Below, one piece after another: positions 2,039 through 16,175 of a DNA stretch of 18,996 bases. The notes under the pieces are model-generated. The model was not told the origin of the DNA. It saw only the letters and a list, made by a program, of their open reading frames with translations, and did no database searches. The stretch comes from Candidatus Njordarchaeota archaeon. Lineage in GTDB: Archaea; Asgardarchaeota; Njordarchaeia; Njordarchaeales; Njordarchaeaceae. The stretch covers positions 1 through 18,996 of the forward strand of contig JAHKLG010000012.1 in NCBI GenBank assembly GCA_029856625.1, written 5' to 3'. How positions within the stretch are numbered: position 1 is the stretch's first letter; each line of letters starts with the position of its first letter. A program made the translations under genes and the position numbers.

Positions 2039-2356
2039 ATGGCAGAAAATCCTATGGAATCTTTCTCAGAATTCAAAGGATGGGTAATTAAGAAGAGAGA
2101 ACATGGTAAAATAGTCTTTTTAGATCTGAGAACAATGACTTTGCCATGGCAAATTCTCCAGGTGGTAATTAAAAAGGGGATCTTTCCAGACGAGAAATGG
2201 GGACTCGTAGAGAAAATTTCCCAAGAATCCGCGATAATTGTGAAAGGTCGAATGGTGAACAATCCTAGAGCGCCAGGAGGGAAAGAGTTAATCGCCAATG
2301 ACGTAGAGGTAACATCTATTGCTGAATCCCCGTATCCTCTAGGAAAAAAAGAGTAA
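2039..2356 (+). CDS. asnS: Asparaginyl-tRNA synthetase, N-terminal anticodon-binding OB-fold fragment (ends at an in-frame TAA)
   Basis: The 105-aa sequence (FKGWVIKKREHGKIVFLDLR...SAIIVKGRMVNNPRAPGGKELIANDVEV) matches the class IIb aaRS N-domain. It is in the same reading frame as the 2372..3334 ORF (both starts are 2 mod 3). Confidence 0.8.
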   Translation: MAENPMESFSEFKGWVIKKREHGKIVFLDLRTMTLPWQILQVVIKKGIFPDEKWGLVEKISQESAIIVKGRMVNNPRAPGGKELIANDVEVTSIAESPYPLGKKE

Positions 2357-2371
2357 CCCCCAGATGTTCTT

Positions 2372-3334
2372 ATGAGGTGGAGACATTTAGCTATTAGATC
2401 CCAAAAATATACGAAAATTTGGATTGTGAGAGATTCATTACTAAGAGCTGCTAGAGAATACTTCACTAAAAATGGATGGTATGAAGTATCACCACCTATT
2501 TTAGTTAGCACAGCATGCGAAGGAGGAGCAACTCTCTTCTCAGTGAACTACTTTGATGACGCTAAGGTATATCTATCGCAATCAGCACAGTTATATTTGG
2601 AGGCAATGATTTTTTCACTTGGCAAAGTTTGGAGCCTAACCCCCTCGTTTAGAGCTGAAAAATCAAGGACAAGACGACATTTAGCGGAATATTGGCATCT
2701 TGAGGCGGAAGCAGCATGGTATGATTTAGATGACATATTAAAAGTTGAGGAAGAGCTTATTTACTACGTTATTCAAAGATTACTTGAGAACGATGTGGCT
2801 TCCCGGATTATTAAGGAATTCAGAGGATCACTAGAGATGCTAGAAGATGTGAGAATTCCTTTCAAGAGGATAAGGTATGATGAAGCTATTGAGATTTTGC
2901 AGTCAAAGGGATTAAAAATCGAATGGGGCGACGATATTGGTGGGGATGAGGAAAGGATATTGTCAGAAGAGATCGGAGAATGGTTCTTTTTGACGCATTT
3001 TCCAGCGAATATTAAAGCTTTCTATGTTAAACTTGACGAAAAGAGACCTGAGGTAAGTTTATCTGCAGATTTGTTAGCTCCTGAGGGTTATGGAGAAATA
3101 ATTGGGGGAAGTCAAAGAGAGGATAAAGTAGATGTTTTAATCGAAAGGATAAAGTCGGAAGGTTTCGATCCGAAAGATTATGAATGGTATCTTGATTTAA
3201 GAAGATATGGAAGTGTTCCTCATAGCGGTTTTGGATTAGGAGTGGAGAGATTATTGATGTGGGTTCTTAAACTCGACCACATAAGAGACTCCTTGCCGTT
3301 CCCGAGACTAGCTAGAGTTAAAAAATTCATATAG
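2372..3334 (+). CDS. asnS: Asparaginyl-tRNA synthetase, catalytic core fragment
   Basis: The sequence reads RHLAIRS...GGATLF...YLSQSAQLYLEAMI...PSFRAEKSRTRRHLAEYWHLEAE...LAPEGYGEIIGGSQRE...YGSVPHSGFGLGVERL. Class II motifs 1-3 are intact and AsnRS-type (close to the Pyrococcus AsnRS as I recall it). The frame stays open from the TAA at 2354-2356 onward (PPDVLMRWRHL). Confidence 0.85.
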   Translation: MRWRHLAIRSQKYTKIWIVRDSLLRAAREYFTKNGWYEVSPPILVSTACEGGATLFSVNYFDDAKVYLSQSAQLYLEAMIFSLGKVWSLTPSFRAEKSRTRRHLAEYWHLEAEAAWYDLDDILKVEEELIYYVIQRLLENDVASRIIKEFRGSLEMLEDVRIPFKRIRYDEAIEILQSKGLKIEWGDDIGGDEERILSEEIGEWFFLTHFPANIKAFYVKLDEKRPEVSLSADLLAPEGYGEIIGGSQREDKVDVLIERIKSEGFDPKDYEWYLDLRRYGSVPHSGFGLGVERLLMWVLKLDHIRDSLPFPRLARVKKFI

Positions 3335-3361: not shown

Positions 3362-3420
3362 GATCAATGATGAATTCATCCTTGAGCGATTAGATGAGCG
3401 GCGATGGGCAGGCTGAGATC
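3362..3420 (+). ncRNA. Candidate C/D box sRNA
   Basis: The layout is GATC-a-ATGATGA (C box, 3367-3373), then 12 nt, GCGA (degenerate D'), TAGATGA (C'-like, 3391-3397), a GC-rich guide GCGGCGATGGGCAGG, CTGA (D box, 3413-3416) and GATC. The terminal 4-bp stem GATC/GATC brackets the C and D boxes. The 50-nt C-to-D span is typical of archaeal sRNAs. The internal boxes are degenerate. Confidence 0.4.
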
Positions 3421-3520
3421 TATGGATTAATTATTATTCAAAATTAAGCAAGAGTCATAGAAAGGTAAAATTTAAAAAAGAGACCCAATTGTGTGGAATA
3501 TTGTTGGCTTAAATTATCCA

Positions 3521-3685
3521 CCCGCCCCCGCGGCCGGAAGCTAAGCCCTCCCACGAGGGACCGAGTACCGCGCTCCGCGAGGGCGCGGGAAAGGCCCTTG
3601 CTGCGTCCTCCTTAAAGGGGGACGCGGCCACAGGGGAGGGGTCACGCCCGTTCCCATTCCGAACACGGAAACCGTGGGGGCGGGG
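3521..3685 (+). rRNA. rrf: Circularly permuted 5S rRNA gene (precursor with a 13-bp terminal clamp helix; predicted processed span 3540-3670)
   Basis: All 5S elements are present but in the order 3'-part, then cap loop, then 5'-part. GCUAAGCC is at 3540-3547. The helix II 3' strand CCCUCCC (3546-3552) pairs with GGGAGGG (3634-3640). Helix V is AGGG(A)CC (3556-3562) with GGCCCU (3593-3598). Loop E-like GAGUACC / GGGAAA is present. Helix IV is CCGCGC (3568-3573) with GCGCGG (3583-3588). Helix I is CUGCGUCCUCC (3601-3611) with GGGGGACGCGG (3617-3627), closed by UUAAA (3612-3616). Loop A is CCACAG. Helix III/loop C is CCCGUUCCCAUUCCGAACACGGAA (3647-3670). The flanks CCCGCCCCCGCGG (3521-3533) and CCGUGGGGGCGGG (3672-3684) form 13 bp. 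A T5 run follows at 3686-3690. Confidence 0.8.
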
Positions 3686-3903
3686 TTTTTAATCCTTCTT
3701 TTGAGTTAAAGTCTGATGCGTGTTTTTCTTGGCTAATGTGCTTTAATTTTTATCCAAACGATATCTTAGAAGGTAATAATATGCTGTGAGTATTACACAT
3801 ATTATATTGTGCTTTTAATTTGGATGTGAATGTTTCACAAAAAGATTTAATCAAAAATAAACTATCAAATAGATTTGAATGAGAAATTTTGGTATAACCT
3901 ACT

Positions 3904-4910: not shown

Positions 4911-5546
4911 TTGGTTTACAAAGATAAGCATGGCTACTATAGGTTCAAAATAGTTTTCTATGGTCCATCAATGGCTGGGAAAACCACAATGGTGAAGATG
5001 CTATATAATAAGATCCTTGGGCTCAAAAAAGGAAGAATTCATTCAATAGAGGGAACTGACGGTAGAACATTATATTTTGATTACGTACCATTCGCTACTA
5101 AGGGAAAAGTACTATTTGACGTTTATACTGTTCCGGGACAGAGAAGGCATAAAAGGCAGAGAAAGCTAGTTCTAGAAGGAGCTGATGCTATAATTTTCGT
5201 AGTTGATAGCGATCCTAATGCATTAAATGAAAATATCTACAGCATTAATGAACTCAGGGAATTCTTAGGAGATAAATGGGGAGAAATCCCTATAATTATT
5301 GCTCTAAATAAGAGAGACTTGGCGGATGCCCTGCCAGAGACTGTTTTGTTAAGAGCGTTAAGACTAGATGGTCCATTTCCAGTATTTAGAACAATTGCTA
5401 TAGATGGAAAAGGGGTTAAAAGGGTTTTTCAGGAAGCTGCTCGGCTTGCAATGCTATATAGAGTCTTTCCAGATATTTACAAGGAACAACTAGCAGATCT
5501 AGCAAGGATCACGCGAGAAAGAATAGGTGCGGTCTCGGAAGAATAG
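4911..5546 (+). CDS. MglA-like small Ras-superfamily GTPase
   Basis: It has a TTG start preceded by GGAGGTG at 4898-4904. G1 is GPSMAGKTT. G3 is TVPGQ, with Thr in place of Asp as in the MglA family. G4 is NKRD. Confidence 0.8.
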   Translation: MVYKDKHGYYRFKIVFYGPSMAGKTTMVKMLYNKILGLKKGRIHSIEGTDGRTLYFDYVPFATKGKVLFDVYTVPGQRRHKRQRKLVLEGADAIIFVVDSDPNALNENIYSINELREFLGDKWGEIPIIIALNKRDLADALPETVLLRALRLDGPFPVFRTIAIDGKGVKRVFQEAARLAMLYRVFPDIYKEQLADLARITRERIGAVSEE

Positions 5547-7819: not shown

Positions 7820-7961
7820 TGGTGGGCCCGGGCGGATTTGAACCGCCGACCTCCCGGTCTCTGAATACCCCCTTAAAGTTCTTCTTGAATTTCTGAAATC
7901 TTTTTTATTGAACTGGAGTATTTATCAGCCGGGCGCTCTAGCCAGGCTGAGCTACGGGCCC
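7820..7961 (-). tRNA. tRNA-Ile(GAU) with a 64-nt intron at 37/38 (intron 7859-7922); CCA encoded
   Basis: The reverse complement folds as GGGCCCG TA GCTC AGCCTGGCTA GAGC G CCCGG CTGATA[64-nt intron]A CCGGG AGGTC GGCGG TTCAAAT CCGCC CGGGCCC A CCA. The BHB is a central helix CTGA/TCAG, bulges TAA and AGA, and an inner helix ATACTCC/GGGGTAT. Confidence 0.9.
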
Positions 7962-8193: not shown

Positions 8194-9636
8194 ATGTTAG
8201 CCTTGGAGGTCGAACTTAAACGTGGCCAAAAGTGTCTTATTAAAAGTGAGCGAGGCGGCTATTTCTTCATCGTAGAGGGCTTATTAGAAATATTTGGTAT
8301 GCAATTAGGAGCTGGTGAAAAAATATACGTTCCCATTGGGCGAGTTTTTCCTATCCTAGTTATTGAGGATTCTAAGCTTATTCTCGAAAACTGCGATTTA
8401 GTACGCATTAGTGAAGATCTTTTTCCTCCAGAATGGTTTAAGACAATAGAGCGCATACTAAATGCCATGGAGGATAAGAAAAATTTATCCATATGCGTAC
8501 TTGGATACACAGATGTTGGTAAGAGCTCACTTATTCTCTTGCTAACAAATAAATTAGTTAAGAAGGGGTATACTGTAGGGATACTTGATGCAGATATTGG
8601 GCAATCAAAAATTGGTCCCCCTGGAGTTATTGGTGCTGCAATAATTCGCCATCCAGTTCTAGATCTAAGCGATATTCCGATGGAGGTAGGATACTTTATT
8701 GGGGATAAGACGCCAGAAGGACATCTCTTGCCACAAGTGATTGGGGTAAGCAAGTTATTCTCCTTTCTCAGAAATAAGTGTGACGCAATATTAATCGATA
8801 CTACTGGAATGGTTCATGGTGGTCCTGCTAGAGCATTAAAACTGTACAAAGTGGATAATGTTCATCCAGACTTTCTTATAATCTTAGAAAAGTACAGAGA
8901 GGCTGAACACCTTGTAAAACTTCTTCAAAAATCGGCAAATGAGATAATCCGCCTACCATCTCCAAAGACTTTAAAATCAACTGCCCGACCTGCCAGAATA
9001 GCGCTTAGAACATATAGTTTTAAGAAATTCGTAAAAACAGCGCATGAAAAAACTATAGAAGTAAAGTTCAGTGACATCTCTCTTCAAGAATGTGTCTTGG
9101 GAACTGGTTATCCTATCCCGAATCCAGCGAAGGTCTTTGAAGACGTAACAATTTTATGGGCCGAAGTGAGTCCAGACATATTCCTAATAATAACCAGAGA
9201 GCCCAAACATCTGCACGCTAAGGAAGAGCTTACCGCCAAAGCACGAAGGCTGATGGTATCTATAAAAACACTTTTCATAGCCTCTCGGATGAATGTTTCT
9301 AAGGAAACTATAAAACATTCGCCTATTCTTTCTAAAATGGGCGCTGAAAACGTTGAGGCGATCGCTAAAGTGATATTACGAGCGAACATCACGGAAATAC
9401 CGATAAGGATAATCCCAAAAAGTGTATACGAAAATCTTTACATAGGTCTTCTCAATAAGAGCGGGGATTTAATAGCAGTAGGTATTTTAAAAGATATAGA
9501 TTTTCAGCATCAAAAGATGCTAATTAAAGCCCTCTTTTTCAAGAGTCAAAATGATATTGCAATCATCCGGATGGGTTACCTAAAATTAAACGATAACTGG
9601 GAAGAAATCGGAAAAAGGAGAATTGGCGTGGGATAA
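8194..9636 (+). CDS. Clp1/Grc3-family polynucleotide 5'-hydroxyl kinase (COG1341-like), three-domain form
   Basis: Walker A is VLGYTDVGKSSL, followed by GILDADIGQS and the lid/Walker B-like LIDTTGMVHG. The N-terminal segment LKRGQKCLIKSERGGYFFIVEGLLEIFGMQL resembles the eukaryotic Clp1 N-domain (G.aEifG). About 150 aa of C-terminal region follow. Confidence 0.75.
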   Translation: MLALEVELKRGQKCLIKSERGGYFFIVEGLLEIFGMQLGAGEKIYVPIGRVFPILVIEDSKLILENCDLVRISEDLFPPEWFKTIERILNAMEDKKNLSICVLGYTDVGKSSLILLLTNKLVKKGYTVGILDADIGQSKIGPPGVIGAAIIRHPVLDLSDIPMEVGYFIGDKTPEGHLLPQVIGVSKLFSFLRNKCDAILIDTTGMVHGGPARALKLYKVDNVHPDFLIILEKYREAEHLVKLLQKSANEIIRLPSPKTLKSTARPARIALRTYSFKKFVKTAHEKTIEVKFSDISLQECVLGTGYPIPNPAKVFEDVTILWAEVSPDIFLIITREPKHLHAKEELTAKARRLMVSIKTLFIASRMNVSKETIKHSPILSKMGAENVEAIAKVILRANITEIPIRIIPKSVYENLYIGLLNKSGDLIAVGILKDIDFQHQKMLIKALFFKSQNDIAIIRMGYLKLNDNWEEIGKRRIGVG

Positions 9637-9987: not shown

Positions 9988-10091
9988 GGGCCCGTAGCTC
10001 AGTAGGAGAGAGCGGCGGCCTCCTAACTGCTGAGTGATAAATTGCGGGAGAGAGCCGTCGGTCGCGGGTTCGAGTCCCGCCGGGCCCGCCA
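9988..10091 (+). tRNA. tRNA-Arg(CCU) with a 27-nt intron at 37/38 (intron 10026-10052); CCA encoded
   Basis: It folds as GGGCCCG TA GCTC AGTAGGAGA GAGC G GCGGC CTCCTA[intron]A GCCGT CGGTC GCGGG TTCGAGT CCCGC CGGGCCC G CCA. The BHB has a central helix CTCC (10020-10023) / GGAG (10047-10050) and bulges TAA (10024-10026) and AGA (10051-10053). Confidence 0.9.
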
Positions 10092-15888: not shown

Positions 15889-15980
15889 TGGAGCCGCGGG
15901 CGGGATTCGAACCCGCGACCTCGGGATTTCTCTCAACGAGTTGTTACGAGTCCCGCGCTCTACCACTGAGCTACCGCGGC
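15889..15980 (-). tRNA. tRNA-Thr(CGU) with a 17-nt intron at 37/38 (intron 15928-15944); CCA encoded
   Basis: The reverse complement folds as GCCGCGG TA GCTC AGTGGTA GAGC G CGGGA CTCGTA[ACAACTCGTTGAGAGAA]A TCCCG AGGTC GCGGG TTCGAAT CCCGC CCGCGGC T CCA. The bulges are TAA and AAA. The central helix CTCG/AGAG has 3 bp plus one mismatch. Confidence 0.9.
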
Positions 15981-16111
15981 ATGAACGTCAATACTCTCCG
16001 ATATTCAAAGATTTTTTAAAAATTTAATAGGAATGTTCCCCGAGCAACTAACACCCATCCCTCATCGGATTGCTTTTCCAGCTTTCCTCAGGTGAGCTCT
16101 CTCGCCCGGGG

Positions 16112-16175
16112 TATAGCCAATACGGCCTTCCACCGCTTCATAATTATCTGCGGAGGAGGGGCCGTATTGGCTATA
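16112..16175. repeat. Perfect 16-bp inverted repeat (long hairpin) inside a GC-enriched intergenic island
   Basis: TATAGCCAATACGGCC (16112-16127) is the exact reverse complement of GGCCGTATTGGCTATA (16160-16175). The stem can extend (UUCC.CCGC with GCGG.GG.GG, including G-U pairs and bulges) to an apical loop UUCAUAAUUAUCU (16137-16149). Confidence 0.9.

What the first reader, a model, noticed from the sequence alone, without database searches (positions are those of the whole stretch)
3521..3690. Circularly permuted 5S rRNA gene whose flanks form a BHB-like motif predicting a circular 5S rRNA
Seen in sequence: this GC-rich island contains every canonical 5S element, but the genomic order is rotated. 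It starts with GCUAAGCC, the helix II 3' strand, helices V and IV, and the helix I 3' strand (3540-3611). Then comes a UUAAA cap (3612-3616). It ends with the helix I 5' strand, loop A, the helix II 5' strand, and helix III/loop C ending ...CCGAACACGGAA (3617-3670). Rejoining A3670 to G3540 gives a textbook crenarchaeal-type 5S, ...CCCAUUCCGAACACGGAA-GCUAAGCC.... The two gene ends are held by a perfect 13-bp helix (3521-3533 with 3672-3684, one G-U pair). Next to that helix the 3' strand carries a 3-nt bulge AAA (3669-3671). Three central pairs follow (C3534-G3668, C3535-G3667, G3536-C3666, then a G3537 x A3665 mismatch). The 5' strand then carries AAG (3538-3540). In all three tRNA introns of this window, cutting after the second bulge nucleotide reproduces correct exon ends. 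Applying the same rule here places cuts at A3539|G3540 and A3670|A3671, exactly the native 5S junction. Inference: the tRNA splicing endonuclease plus a ligase (RtcB-type) would yield a 131-nt covalently closed 5S. This circle may be functional as such or be re-opened at the UUAAA cap. Alternatively the RNA stays linear with its new ends in helix III. Circular rRNA intermediates and a permuted mature 23S are known in archaea, and permuted 5S is known in some mitochondria. I am not aware of a genomically permuted archaeal 5S. Caveats: no inner (H2) helix is evident, and the central helix competes with helix III, so the motif is relaxed rather than canonical.
Basis: partly seen in the sequence, partly recalled or inferred. 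Interest (0 to 1): 0.92.

Follow-up and report, generated by a model that had tools for sequence, protein, structure and literature searches.

The report
Circularly permuted archaeal 5S rRNA gene
This is a real, conserved 5S ribosomal RNA gene whose two halves are encoded in swapped order and flanked by a tRNA-intron-type splicing signal, so an entire group of heat-loving Asgard archaea probably builds its ribosomes with a ring-shaped 5S RNA, which has not been described for any cell.

Summary
Window 3540-3670 (+) holds a complete 5S rRNA in rotated order (3' two-thirds, 5-nt cap, 5' third). Rfam's colinear 5S model fails here (best 21 bits, cut-off 38). A covariance model built only from nine ordinary 5S rRNAs that I permuted in silico at CGGAA|G matches 3540-3670 end to end at 100.2 bits (E 9e-22).

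The same arrangement occurs in 10 further loci from public MAGs and metagenomes, 9 further distinct sequences, scoring 94-103 bits. Labels include Njordarchaeota, Promethearchaeati and a hot-spring "Crenarchaeota" MAG.

Across the family:
- All 13 pairs of the leader-trailer clamp helix change on both sides while staying paired (97%).
- The 5S helices covary.
- The non-5S nucleotides CCG-AA (leader) and A (trailer) are invariant.

These form outer helix, AAA bulge, 3-4 bp helix, AAG bulge, with no inner helix. Cutting after the second bulge nucleotide, the rule that fits all three tRNA introns in the window, gives A3539|G3540 and A3670|A3671, the native 5S junction.

Best reading: splicing endonuclease plus RtcB produce a 131-nt circular 5S. 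This parallels the permuted SRP RNA of Thermoproteus. Circularity and the absence of a colinear copy elsewhere are untested. I found no prior report.

The parts
3468..3479 (+). Archaeal BRE/TATA-like promoter element (AAAATTTAAAAA). The transcription start is inferred near 3500.
   Evidence: An AAAWWTTTAAAAA-type box sits about 40-50 nt upstream of the clamp helix in the window and in L132, L128, L127, L067, L125 and L081. L079 has TTTTTATAT. The TSS position is inferred from the usual -26/-27 spacing (own knowledge).
3521..3533 (+). Clamp (outer) helix, 5' strand, in the leader. Removed on processing.
   Evidence: Pairs with 3672-3684 over 13 bp, 1 G.U. In 11 loci all 13 pairs change on both sides and 97.2% of cells are paired.
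3534..3537 (+). Central BHB helix, 5' strand (CCGG), in the leader.
   Evidence: C3534-G3668, C3535-G3667 and G3536-C3666 are invariant in 11/11 loci although they lie outside the mature 5S. The 4th pair is G.A here, A-U in 3 loci and A.A in 1.
3538..3540 (+). 5' bulge AAG. Predicted cut A3539|G3540.
   Evidence: Invariant in 11/11 loci. The cut-after-second-bulge-nucleotide rule reproduces the exon ends of all three tRNA introns in the window. G3540 is the first base matched by the permuted 5S model.
3540..3611 (+). 3' two-thirds of 5S rRNA: GCUAAG (loop B side), helix II 3' strand 3546-3552, helix V 3555-3561/3593-3599, helix IV 3568-3576/3581-3588 with a GCGA loop, helix I 3' strand 3600-3611.
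   Evidence: RF00001 model positions ~46-120 align here. Model R1 positions 1-~70 align here. Helices IV and V covary: 8/8 and 4/7 pairs change on both sides.
3612..3616 (+). Cap loop UUAAA, closing helix I where a normal 5S has its 5' and 3' ends.
   Evidence: The cap varies in relatives: UUCG x2, GCAA, GUAA, GUUA, UAGA, AUUC and others.
3617..3670 (+). 5' third of 5S rRNA: helix I 5' strand 3617-3628, loop A, helix II 5' strand 3634-3640, helix III 3648-3653/3661-3668, loop C 3654-3660. Ends ...CCGAACACGGAA.
   Evidence: RF00001 model positions 28-51 match 3647-3670 at 21.1 bits. R1 covers it full length. Helix II pairs 3546-3552 with 3634-3640 across the swapped halves, with 3 compensatory pairs and 100% pairing.
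3665..3668 (+). ACGG: 3' strand shared by helix III (mature fold) and the central BHB helix (precursor fold).
   Evidence: Position 3665 covaries with its helix III partner (UA:8, AU:3), not with the leader. The two conformers are nearly isoenergetic.
3669..3671 (+). 3' bulge AAA. Predicted cut A3670|A3671.
   Evidence: Invariant in 11/11 loci, including A3671, which lies outside the mature RNA. A3670 is the last base matched by R1.
3672..3684 (+). Clamp (outer) helix, 3' strand, in the trailer. Removed on processing.
3685..3689 (+). T5 run, the likely archaeal transcription terminator directly after the clamp.
   Evidence: Seen in the sequence. T-runs follow the clamp within 0-35 nt in most relatives. 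The terminator role is inferred.

Best explanation
This is the functional 5S rRNA gene of a Njordarchaeia-type (Asgard) thermophile, encoded in circularly permuted order.

Proposed pathway:
1. A dedicated promoter (TATA at 3468-3479) drives a ~190-nt transcript that ends at the T5 run (3685-3689).
2. Leader and trailer pair into a 13-bp clamp. Together with CCG/CGG and the AAG and AAA bulges, this forms a relaxed bulge-helix-bulge (bulge-helix-loop) substrate.
3. The tRNA splicing endonuclease cuts at A3539|G3540 and A3670|A3671.
4. The RtcB ligase joins the 2',3'-cyclic phosphate of A3670 to the 5'-OH of G3540. This restores the universal ...CCGAACACGGAA-GCUAAGCC... strand between helix III and loop B.
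5. The product is a 131-nt covalently closed 5S rRNA. Helix I stays capped by a small loop, and the RNA enters the ribosome as a circle.

Shown here: the gene is a complete 5S in rotated order, the arrangement and motif are conserved with covariation, and the organism splices BHB introns.

Inferred: cleavage by EndA, ligation, and circular maturity.
For: (1) Full-length match of an independent, in-silico-permuted 5S model exactly at 3540-3670 (100.2 bits, E 9e-22). The colinear Rfam model fails.

(2) Ten more loci, 9 further distinct sequences, have the same break point and score 94-103 bits. None is found by RF00001 at gathering threshold. Neighbouring proteins are 68-90% identical to those of the window, so several species or genera are involved.

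(3) Covariation on the precursor model: 95.5% of cells paired, 35/51 pairs changed on both sides, 0/500 shuffles as good, and slid controls at 38-55% paired. The clamp helix changes on both sides in 13/13 pairs.

(4) The nucleotides outside the mature RNA that define the motif (CCG, AA, A) are invariant, while the adjacent clamp is hypervariable.

(5) The same geometry (outer helix, 3-nt bulge on the 3' strand, 4-position helix, 3-nt bulge on the 5' strand) and the same cut rule fit the three tRNA introns of this window. One of them also has a G.A at the fourth central position.

(6) The BHB conformer is thermodynamically accessible: -92.1 versus -91.4 kcal/mol.

(7) Helix I caps are short and include UUCG and GNRA tetraloops, as expected for a loop that stays closed.

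(8) Precedent: the permuted SRP RNA of Thermoproteus is cut at a leader-trailer BHB by recombinant splicing endonuclease and is circular and functional (PMC4731332).
Against: - No RNA data of any kind.
- No inner helix h' follows the 5' bulge, so the motif is relaxed. The type and substrate range of this lineage's endonuclease were not examined.
- The central helix has only 3 conserved Watson-Crick pairs in 8 of 11 loci and competes with helix III.
- Published work states that circularization is known for archaeal 16S and 23S but not for 5S (PMC12918454). The described archaeal 5S maturation routes use other nucleases (PMC10515664).
Confidence: 0.6

Rival explanations
1. Linear permuted 5S. 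The precursor is cut at or near the BHB, by EndA or another nuclease acting on the clamp stem. It is not ligated. The mature 5S is then a linear RNA with helix I capped and its ends between helix III and loop B (5' GCUAAG..., ...CGGAA 3').
For: - The fold needs no ligation: helices I, II, IV and V all form within one strand.
- Brown-algal mitochondrial 5S is permuted in the final linear product (PMC4267664).
Against: - The break lies inside the most conserved continuous strand of 5S (CGGAA-GYUAAGC).
- EndA products carry exactly the ends RtcB joins. Per the sources read and my own knowledge, archaeal BHB-excised RNAs that have been examined (tRNA introns, pre-16S and pre-23S, Thermoproteus SRP RNA) are found as circles (PMC4731332, PMC12918454, PMC10515664).
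- The invariant bulge nucleotides argue for EndA rather than a generic stem nuclease.
Confidence: 0.2
2. Circular intermediate, conventional product. The RNA is circularized at the BHB as above. It is then re-opened at the cap loop (3612-3616), which restores ordinary 5S ends, as happens with permuted tRNA genes.
For: - Permuted tRNA genes work this way (cited in PMC10085705 and PMC4267664).
Against: - The cap is only 3-5 nt, has no conserved sequence, and in four relatives is a UUCG or GNRA tetraloop.
- No conserved nuclease site is present, such as a tRNA-like element or an A/U-rich motif.
- Permuted tRNAs have RNase P and RNase Z to define their ends. No equivalent is evident here.
Confidence: 0.13
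3. Rearranged 5S pseudogene or relic. The working 5S gene is a normal colinear copy elsewhere in the genome.
For: Whole genomes could not be scanned, so a second copy is not formally excluded.
Against: - Ten distinct sequences keep every 5S helix and the clamp through compensatory substitutions: 23 of 42 5S pairs and 13 of 13 clamp pairs change on both sides.
- A conserved TATA box and a T-run flank the unit.
- All loop C and loop E-type signature nucleotides are intact.
- No colinear 5S was found in the window or in ~68 kb of related loci.
Confidence: 0.03
4. Assembly artefact or chance resemblance.
For: One short ENA contig of the same organism ends inside the element (L001).
Against: The identical arrangement is present in independent assemblies from ENA, JGI and GenBank MAGs, including contigs of 151-212 kb.
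Confidence: 0.01

Closest known systems
Circularly permuted SRP RNA gene of Thermoproteus tenax / T. uzoniensis (Plagens et al. 2015, PMC4731332)
   Same: - An essential structured ncRNA gene encoded 3' part first.
- Leader and trailer pair into a BHB.
- Cleavage by the tRNA splicing endonuclease and RtcB-type ligation restore a functionally important strand.
- The circle is the functional form.
   Different: - A different RNA: 5S rRNA, a ribosome component.
- A different lineage: Njordarchaeia/Asgard rather than Thermoproteales.
- Here the arrangement is conserved across several genera.
- Processing and circularity are shown experimentally for the SRP RNA and only inferred here.
Permuted tRNA genes (Cyanidioschyzon merolae; archaeal cases such as Thermofilum pendens). 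From own knowledge and as cited in PMC10085705 and PMC4267664.
   Same: 3' half upstream of 5' half. BHB formed by leader and trailer. Circular RNA made by the splicing machinery.
   Different: In tRNAs the circle is an intermediate that RNase P and tRNase Z re-open at the normal ends. The 5S cap is a 3-5-nt loop with no evident processing signal.
Circular pre-16S/pre-23S intermediates, circular mature 23S and the post-transcriptionally permuted 23S of Pyrococcus (PMC12918454, PMC7758197, PMC10515664)
   Same: BHB in a long processing stem made of leader and trailer. EndA cut and ligation give a circular rRNA. In some archaea the large-subunit rRNA stays circular or permuted in the ribosome.
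   Different: - Those genes are colinear, and the ligation joins the natural ends plus spacer.
- Here the gene itself is permuted and the ligation rebuilds an internal, universally conserved strand.
- These papers describe 5S as not using this route.
Permuted mitochondrial 5S rRNA of brown algae and other stramenopiles (Valach et al. 2014, PMC4267664; Rfam mtPerm-5S)
   Same: Helix I is closed into a hairpin and the RNA ends lie elsewhere in the three-way structure.
   Different: - Organellar.
- The ends lie at the alpha/gamma junction, not between helix III and loop B.
- No BHB and no circularization; the product is linear.
- No Rfam family reached its threshold on the window.
Ordinary archaeal 5S rRNA (Rfam RF00001)
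   Same: All helices I-V, loop A, loop C CCCAUUCCGAAC, GCUAAGCC and the AGUAC/GAAA loop E region are present once the halves are swapped.
   Different: The order in the genome is rotated, so the colinear model gives 21 bits against a cut-off of 38.

Membership tests
5S rRNA (RF00001) | Colinear match to the covariance model at or above the gathering score (38 bits) | tested here: not met
   No hit at gathering threshold in the window or in 10 related loci. The best partial hits are 21.1 and 19.8 bits.
5S rRNA (RF00001) | Complete set of 5S helices I-V and conserved loops, allowing for circular permutation | tested here: met
   Model R1, built from nine canonical 5S rRNAs permuted in silico, matches 3540-3670 full length at 100.2 bits and E 9e-22. 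94.6% of cells are paired on the canonical 5S helices, and 23/42 pairs show compensatory change.
BHB-flanked circularly permuted archaeal RNA genes (SRP RNA, tRNA type) | 3' part of the RNA encoded upstream of the 5' part in one transcription unit | tested here: met
   A single TATA box lies upstream and a T-run downstream.
BHB-flanked circularly permuted archaeal RNA genes (SRP RNA, tRNA type) | Leader and trailer pair to form a BHB whose cut sites coincide with the native junction | tested here: met
   Clamp of 10-16 bp in 11/11 loci, invariant CCG/CGG, and AAG and AAA bulges. The cuts at 3539|3540 and 3670|3671 equal the ends of the R1 match.
BHB-flanked circularly permuted archaeal RNA genes (SRP RNA, tRNA type) | Cleavage by the splicing endonuclease and a circular RNA with the ligated junction | not testable with these tools
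   Needs RNA-seq, RT-PCR or an enzyme assay.
Canonical hBHBh' motif | Two 3-nt bulges on opposite strands, each 3' of its strand of the central helix | tested here: met
   AAG at 3538-3540 and AAA at 3669-3671, invariant in the family. Same layout as the window's three tRNA introns.
Canonical hBHBh' motif | Central helix of 4 base pairs | tested here: inconclusive
   Three invariant pairs. The fourth position is A-U in 3 loci and G.A or A.A in 8, including the window. The window's own tRNA-Thr intron also has G.A there.
Canonical hBHBh' motif | Inner helix h' beyond the 5'-strand bulge | tested here: not met
   CUAAG (3541-3545) cannot pair with GAAC (3661-3664), and no covarying partner exists. 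The motif is therefore of the relaxed bulge-helix-loop kind.
Permuted mitochondrial 5S (Rfam mtPerm-5S) | Ends at the alpha/gamma junction, and a match to that model | tested here: not met
   No Rfam family other than tRNA reaches its threshold in the window. The break here lies in the beta domain, between helix III and loop B.

The most novel reading that the evidence does not exclude
All Njordarchaeia, the contested thermophilic Asgard class comprising Njordarchaeaceae and probably Panguiarchaeaceae, have lost the colinear 5S gene. They assemble ribosomes around a covalently circular 5S rRNA made by the tRNA splicing machinery. This would be the first circular 5S in any organism and the first genomically permuted 5S outside organelles. 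The permutation would also be a rare genomic change that marks the clade.
Probability: 0.5. Interest if true: 0.92.

Novelty: new variant of a known kind. Interest (0 to 1): 0.88.

Why it matters
1. 5S rRNA is universal, and its gene has been regarded as easy to find in every archaeal, bacterial and nuclear genome (PMC4267664). Here is a cellular lineage where the standard model misses it completely.
   - Such genomes will be annotated as lacking 5S.
   - They will fail the "high-quality MAG" rRNA criterion (MIMAG; own knowledge).

2. It extends the moonlighting of the tRNA splicing endonuclease and RtcB from SRP RNA, tRNAs and 16S/23S to the third rRNA. Current literature says 5S is not processed this way (PMC12918454, PMC10515664).

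3. If the circle is the mature form, it gives a natural test of whether a ribosome tolerates, or benefits at high temperature from, a 5S without ends.

4. The shared break point and BHB are a discrete character. It could be scored in Njordarchaeaceae, Panguiarchaeaceae, Korarchaeota and other Asgard archaea, whose relationships are disputed (PMC12411855).

5. It makes the maturation pathway directly testable with existing Guaymas Basin and hot-spring metatranscriptomes.

Tried and rejected
- **Direct Rfam scoring of the rearranged sequence.** The tool only takes the window or loci. I replaced this test by building a model from canonical 5S genes permuted in silico.
- **First genome contigs pattern (TAAGCC...loop C).** It was too loose. 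About 110 of the 120 returned loci are ordinary bacterial or archaeal 5S genes preceded by the 23S 3' end or by a tandem copy.
- **Hits that are not 5S.** L058/L107 (Clostridia) and L112 (Micavibrio) match the pattern inside protein-coding-looking DNA.
- **Minimum-free-energy folding.** The MFE of the rearranged RNA and of the precursor does not reproduce helices II and III. I therefore did not use MFE as evidence for the 5S fold, only for the clamp and helix I.
- **Fourth central pair (3537 x 3665).** I considered it as a selected pair and rejected that. Position 3665 covaries with its helix III partner, not with the leader.
- **Leader CGGAA as a relic of a tandem duplication.** It is possible, but 5 nt cannot be told apart from the constraint imposed by the BHB itself.
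- **Literature.** Searches for "permuted 5S", "circular 5S", and 5S + BHB + archaea found only the mitochondrial case.
- **Identity of JZ-1.bin_83.** I tried to confirm that it is Panguiarchaeum. No supplement is held and no text match was found, so that assignment stays an inference.
- **Energy evaluation for L089.** It failed for a technical reason: a hairpin shorter than 3 nt after mapping from the alignment.
Full report
**1. The observation**

- Window 3501-3695 is a 66% G+C island in a 38% G+C window.
- 3521-3533 (CCCGCCCCCGCGG) pairs with 3672-3684 (CCGTGGGGGCGGG) over 13 bp, with one G.U.
- CCG 3534-3536 pairs with CGG 3666-3668. G3537 faces A3665.
- AAG (3538-3540) and AAA (3669-3671) are unpaired.
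- TTAAA (3612-3616) caps a 12-bp hairpin, 3600-3611 with 3617-3628.
- The 190-nt region folds with z = -4.69 against 200 dinucleotide shuffles. The clamp and the capped hairpin are both in the MFE structure.

**2. Is it a 5S rRNA in rotated order?**

Rfam at gathering threshold finds three intron-containing tRNAs in the window but no 5S. A permissive scan of 3400-3800 gives two sub-threshold RF00001 hits in swapped order:
- Model positions 28-51 (helix III and loop C) match 3647-3670 at 21.1 bits.
- A forced global alignment at 19.8 bits aligns only model positions ~46-120, to ~3536-3608.

The tool cannot score an edited sequence, so I turned the test around.
- I took nine ordinary 5S genes found here (eight archaeal, one bacterial; RF00001 scores 65-110 bits).
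- I cut each at CGGAA|G and joined the natural ends with a TTCG cap.
- I aligned them and built covariance model R1. Nothing from the family under study went into it.

Results with R1:
- It matches the window at exactly 3540-3670 (+), model positions 1-126 of 126, at 100.2 bits and E 9e-22.
- The same model gives only 41-53 bits on colinear 5S genes.

**3. Relatives**

Two collection scans were run.
Most are ordinary 5S genes. Five archaeal MAG loci have the permuted order:
  - L026, "Crenarchaeota archaeon JZ-1.bin_83"
  - L067, "Promethearchaeati archaeon M2_metabat1_scaf2bin.245"
  - L079, "Candidatus Njordarchaeota archaeon B7_G17"
  - L081, uncultured archaeon
  - L089, "Nitrososphaerota archaeon SRP141552_co1_149"
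- A tighter pattern on JGI metagenomes added L124, L125, L127 and L128. It also returned near-identical copies of the window on contigs of 212 and 155 kb (L131, L132), and repeats of L081 and L089.

Together with the window, the aligned set is 11 loci holding 10 distinct permuted 5S sequences.
- They score 94-103 bits with R1.
- None is detected by RF00001 at gathering threshold.

Neighbouring genes place most of them in one lineage.
- PCNA, an Arf-family GTPase, L11 and three small ORFs are shared with L128, L127, L067, L125 and L081, at 68-90% identity for most of them.
- The gene order around the 5S differs between loci.
- L079, L026, L124 and L089 share no neighbours with the window and are more distant.

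NCBI places Njordarchaeota in the kingdom Promethearchaeati, that is Asgard. A 2025 study unites Njordarchaeaceae and the hot-spring Panguiarchaeaceae as Njordarchaeia and discusses their disputed placement (PMC12411855). That L026/L124/L089 are Panguiarchaeaceae is my inference from the isolate name and habitat. I could not confirm it.

**4. Covariation**

On the gap-free-flank alignment A3, the precursor structure has:
- 95.5% of cells paired, against a shuffled mean of 71.2%;
- 35 of 51 pairs with changes on both sides;
- 0 of 500 shuffles reaching any of the five measures;
- 38-55% paired when the partners are slid by 1-3 columns.

By helix:
- The clamp helix changes on both sides in all 13 pairs and is 97.2% paired. 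Its length is 10-16 bp in every locus.
- Helix II pairs the upstream piece (3546-3552) with the downstream piece (3634-3640). It is 100% paired with three compensatory pairs.
- Helix IV: 8 of 8 pairs change on both sides. Helix V: 4 of 7. Helix I: 7 of 12.
- The canonical helix III is 98.5% paired.

The leader nucleotides CCG and AA and the trailer A, all outside the mature RNA, are invariant in 11 of 11 loci. The clamp next to them is hypervariable. That pattern is what selection on a BHB recognition element predicts. It is not what a decaying pseudogene would show.

**5. The motif and the cut sites**

The three tRNAs of the window each show the same layout: anticodon stem (outer helix), a 3-nt bulge on the 3' strand, four central positions, a 3-nt bulge on the 5' strand, and an inner helix. 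They are Thr-CGU at 15892-15980(-), Arg-CCU at 9988-10088(+) and Ile-GAU at 7823-7961(-). The anticodon assignments and the intron dissection are my own reading of the sequences printed, not a tool output.
- Cutting after the second nucleotide of each bulge (UA|A; AA|A or AG|A) gives a correct 7-nt anticodon loop in all three.
- tRNA-Thr has a G.A at the fourth central position, like the 5S locus.

At the 5S locus the layout is the same, with two differences.
- There is no inner helix, so this is a relaxed bulge-helix-loop form.
- The fourth central position is a Watson-Crick pair in only 3 of 11 loci, because position 3665 is constrained by helix III (UA:8, AU:3).

The cut rule gives A3539|G3540 and A3670|A3671. 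The excised 131-mer, once joined, reads ...CCGAACACGGAA-GCUAAGCC..., the standard 5S sequence.

**6. The transcription unit**

- A conserved AAAWWTTTAAAAA box lies about 40-50 nt upstream of the clamp in the window (3468-3479) and in six relatives. L079 has TTTTTATAT.
- With the usual archaeal spacing this puts the start near 3500, upstream of the clamp.
- A T5 run follows the clamp directly (3685-3689).
- In L026, L089 and L124 two or three tRNA genes lie 100-470 nt upstream of the 5S.

**7. Mechanism and rivals**

The most likely pathway is transcription, leader-trailer pairing, cleavage by the splicing endonuclease, and RtcB ligation to a circular 5S that stays circular. I put this whole chain at about 0.6.

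The precedent is the permuted SRP RNA of Thermoproteus (PMC4731332). There a leader-trailer BHB is cut by recombinant endonuclease, and the circular RNA binds SRP19 and SRP54.

Rivals:
- A linear permuted product without ligation (about 0.2).
- A circle re-opened at the cap to give ordinary ends, as for permuted tRNAs (about 0.13). The caps are 3-5 nt, unconserved, and in four members are UUCG or GNRA tetraloops, which argues against a processing site.
- A pseudogene (about 0.03).
- An artefact (about 0.01). This is excluded by the independent assemblies.

**8. What is known**

- Full-text searches for "permuted 5S" and "circular 5S" return only the stramenopile mitochondrial case and unrelated plant papers.
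- A 2023 list of natural RNA permutations names 5S only for mitochondria and SRP RNA for archaea (PMC10085705).
- A 2026 paper states that circularization applies to archaeal 16S and 23S "but not 5S rRNAs" (PMC12918454).
- The described archaeal 5S maturation routes use other nucleases (PMC10515664).
- The mitochondrial permuted 5S has its ends at the alpha/gamma junction, has no BHB, and is linear (PMC4267664).

The mechanism class is therefore known: a BHB-flanked permuted gene. The substrate, the lineage and the clade-wide fixation appear to be new. The library does not cover subscription journals, so an unseen report cannot be excluded.

**9. Limits**

- There is no RNA evidence.
- No whole-genome scan for a colinear copy was possible. 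Only the 19-kb window and about 68 kb of related loci were checked, with negative results.
- The endonuclease of the lineage was not examined.
- The taxonomic labels are those of the public records.

Noticed in passing
window 2039-3334 (+): An AspRS/AsnRS-like gene is split into two same-frame ORFs: an OB anticodon-binding domain (2039-2356) and a class II catalytic core (2372-3334). They are separated by an in-frame TAA just after an A7 run (GGAAAAAAAGAGTAA). The same arrangement is kept at 99% identity in two independent metagenome contigs, L131 and L132. It could be a truly split synthetase, readthrough or recoding, or a shared error.
   Followed up: partly
window 8194-9636 (+): A 480-aa protein with a Clp1-type P-loop polynucleotide kinase domain (Pfam CLP1_P, 2.3e-34). 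It lies between two intron-containing tRNA genes. In eukaryotes Clp1 is an RNA 5'-kinase associated with the tRNA splicing endonuclease (own knowledge).
   Followed up: no
window 4911-5546 (+): An Arf-family small GTPase (Pfam Arf, 1.4e-11). It is conserved next to PCNA and the permuted 5S in L128, L067, L125 and L081, which fits an Asgard origin.
   Followed up: partly
window 7823-7961 (-), 9988-10088 (+), 15892-15980 (-): All three tRNA genes carry introns at 37/38, of about 63, 27 and 17 nt by my own count from the sequences, with a clear hBHBh' motif. ARAGORN finds only one of them and calls it Tyr(GTA). The Infernal alignment indicates Thr(CGU).
   Followed up: partly
window 16077-16141: A 65-nt island of 58% G+C in the AT-rich spacer between the tRNA at 15892-15980 and the TiaS gene. 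It may be a small RNA. It had no Rfam hit at gathering threshold.
   Followed up: no
L041, L051, L071, L095, L111 (Mycobacterium, Mycolicibacterium, Sanguibacter): The sequence GAACCCGGAAGCTAAGCC lies about 120 nt upstream of loop C of a normal 5S gene. This suggests tandem or partial 5S duplications in these actinobacteria. A tandem duplication is the obvious raw material for a circular permutation.
   Followed up: no
L026 1879-2234, L089 3069-3236, L124 4512-4850: In the more distant group of permuted 5S loci, two or three tRNA genes lie 100-470 nt upstream of the 5S on the same strand. The 5S may be co-transcribed with tRNAs there, unlike in the window, which has its own TATA box.
   Followed up: no
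L001 (ENA contig k141_1637753, 3669 bp): An independent short assembly of the same organism ends inside the 5S element, at about window position 3666. This may be an assembly break caused by strain variants of the 5S.
   Followed up: no
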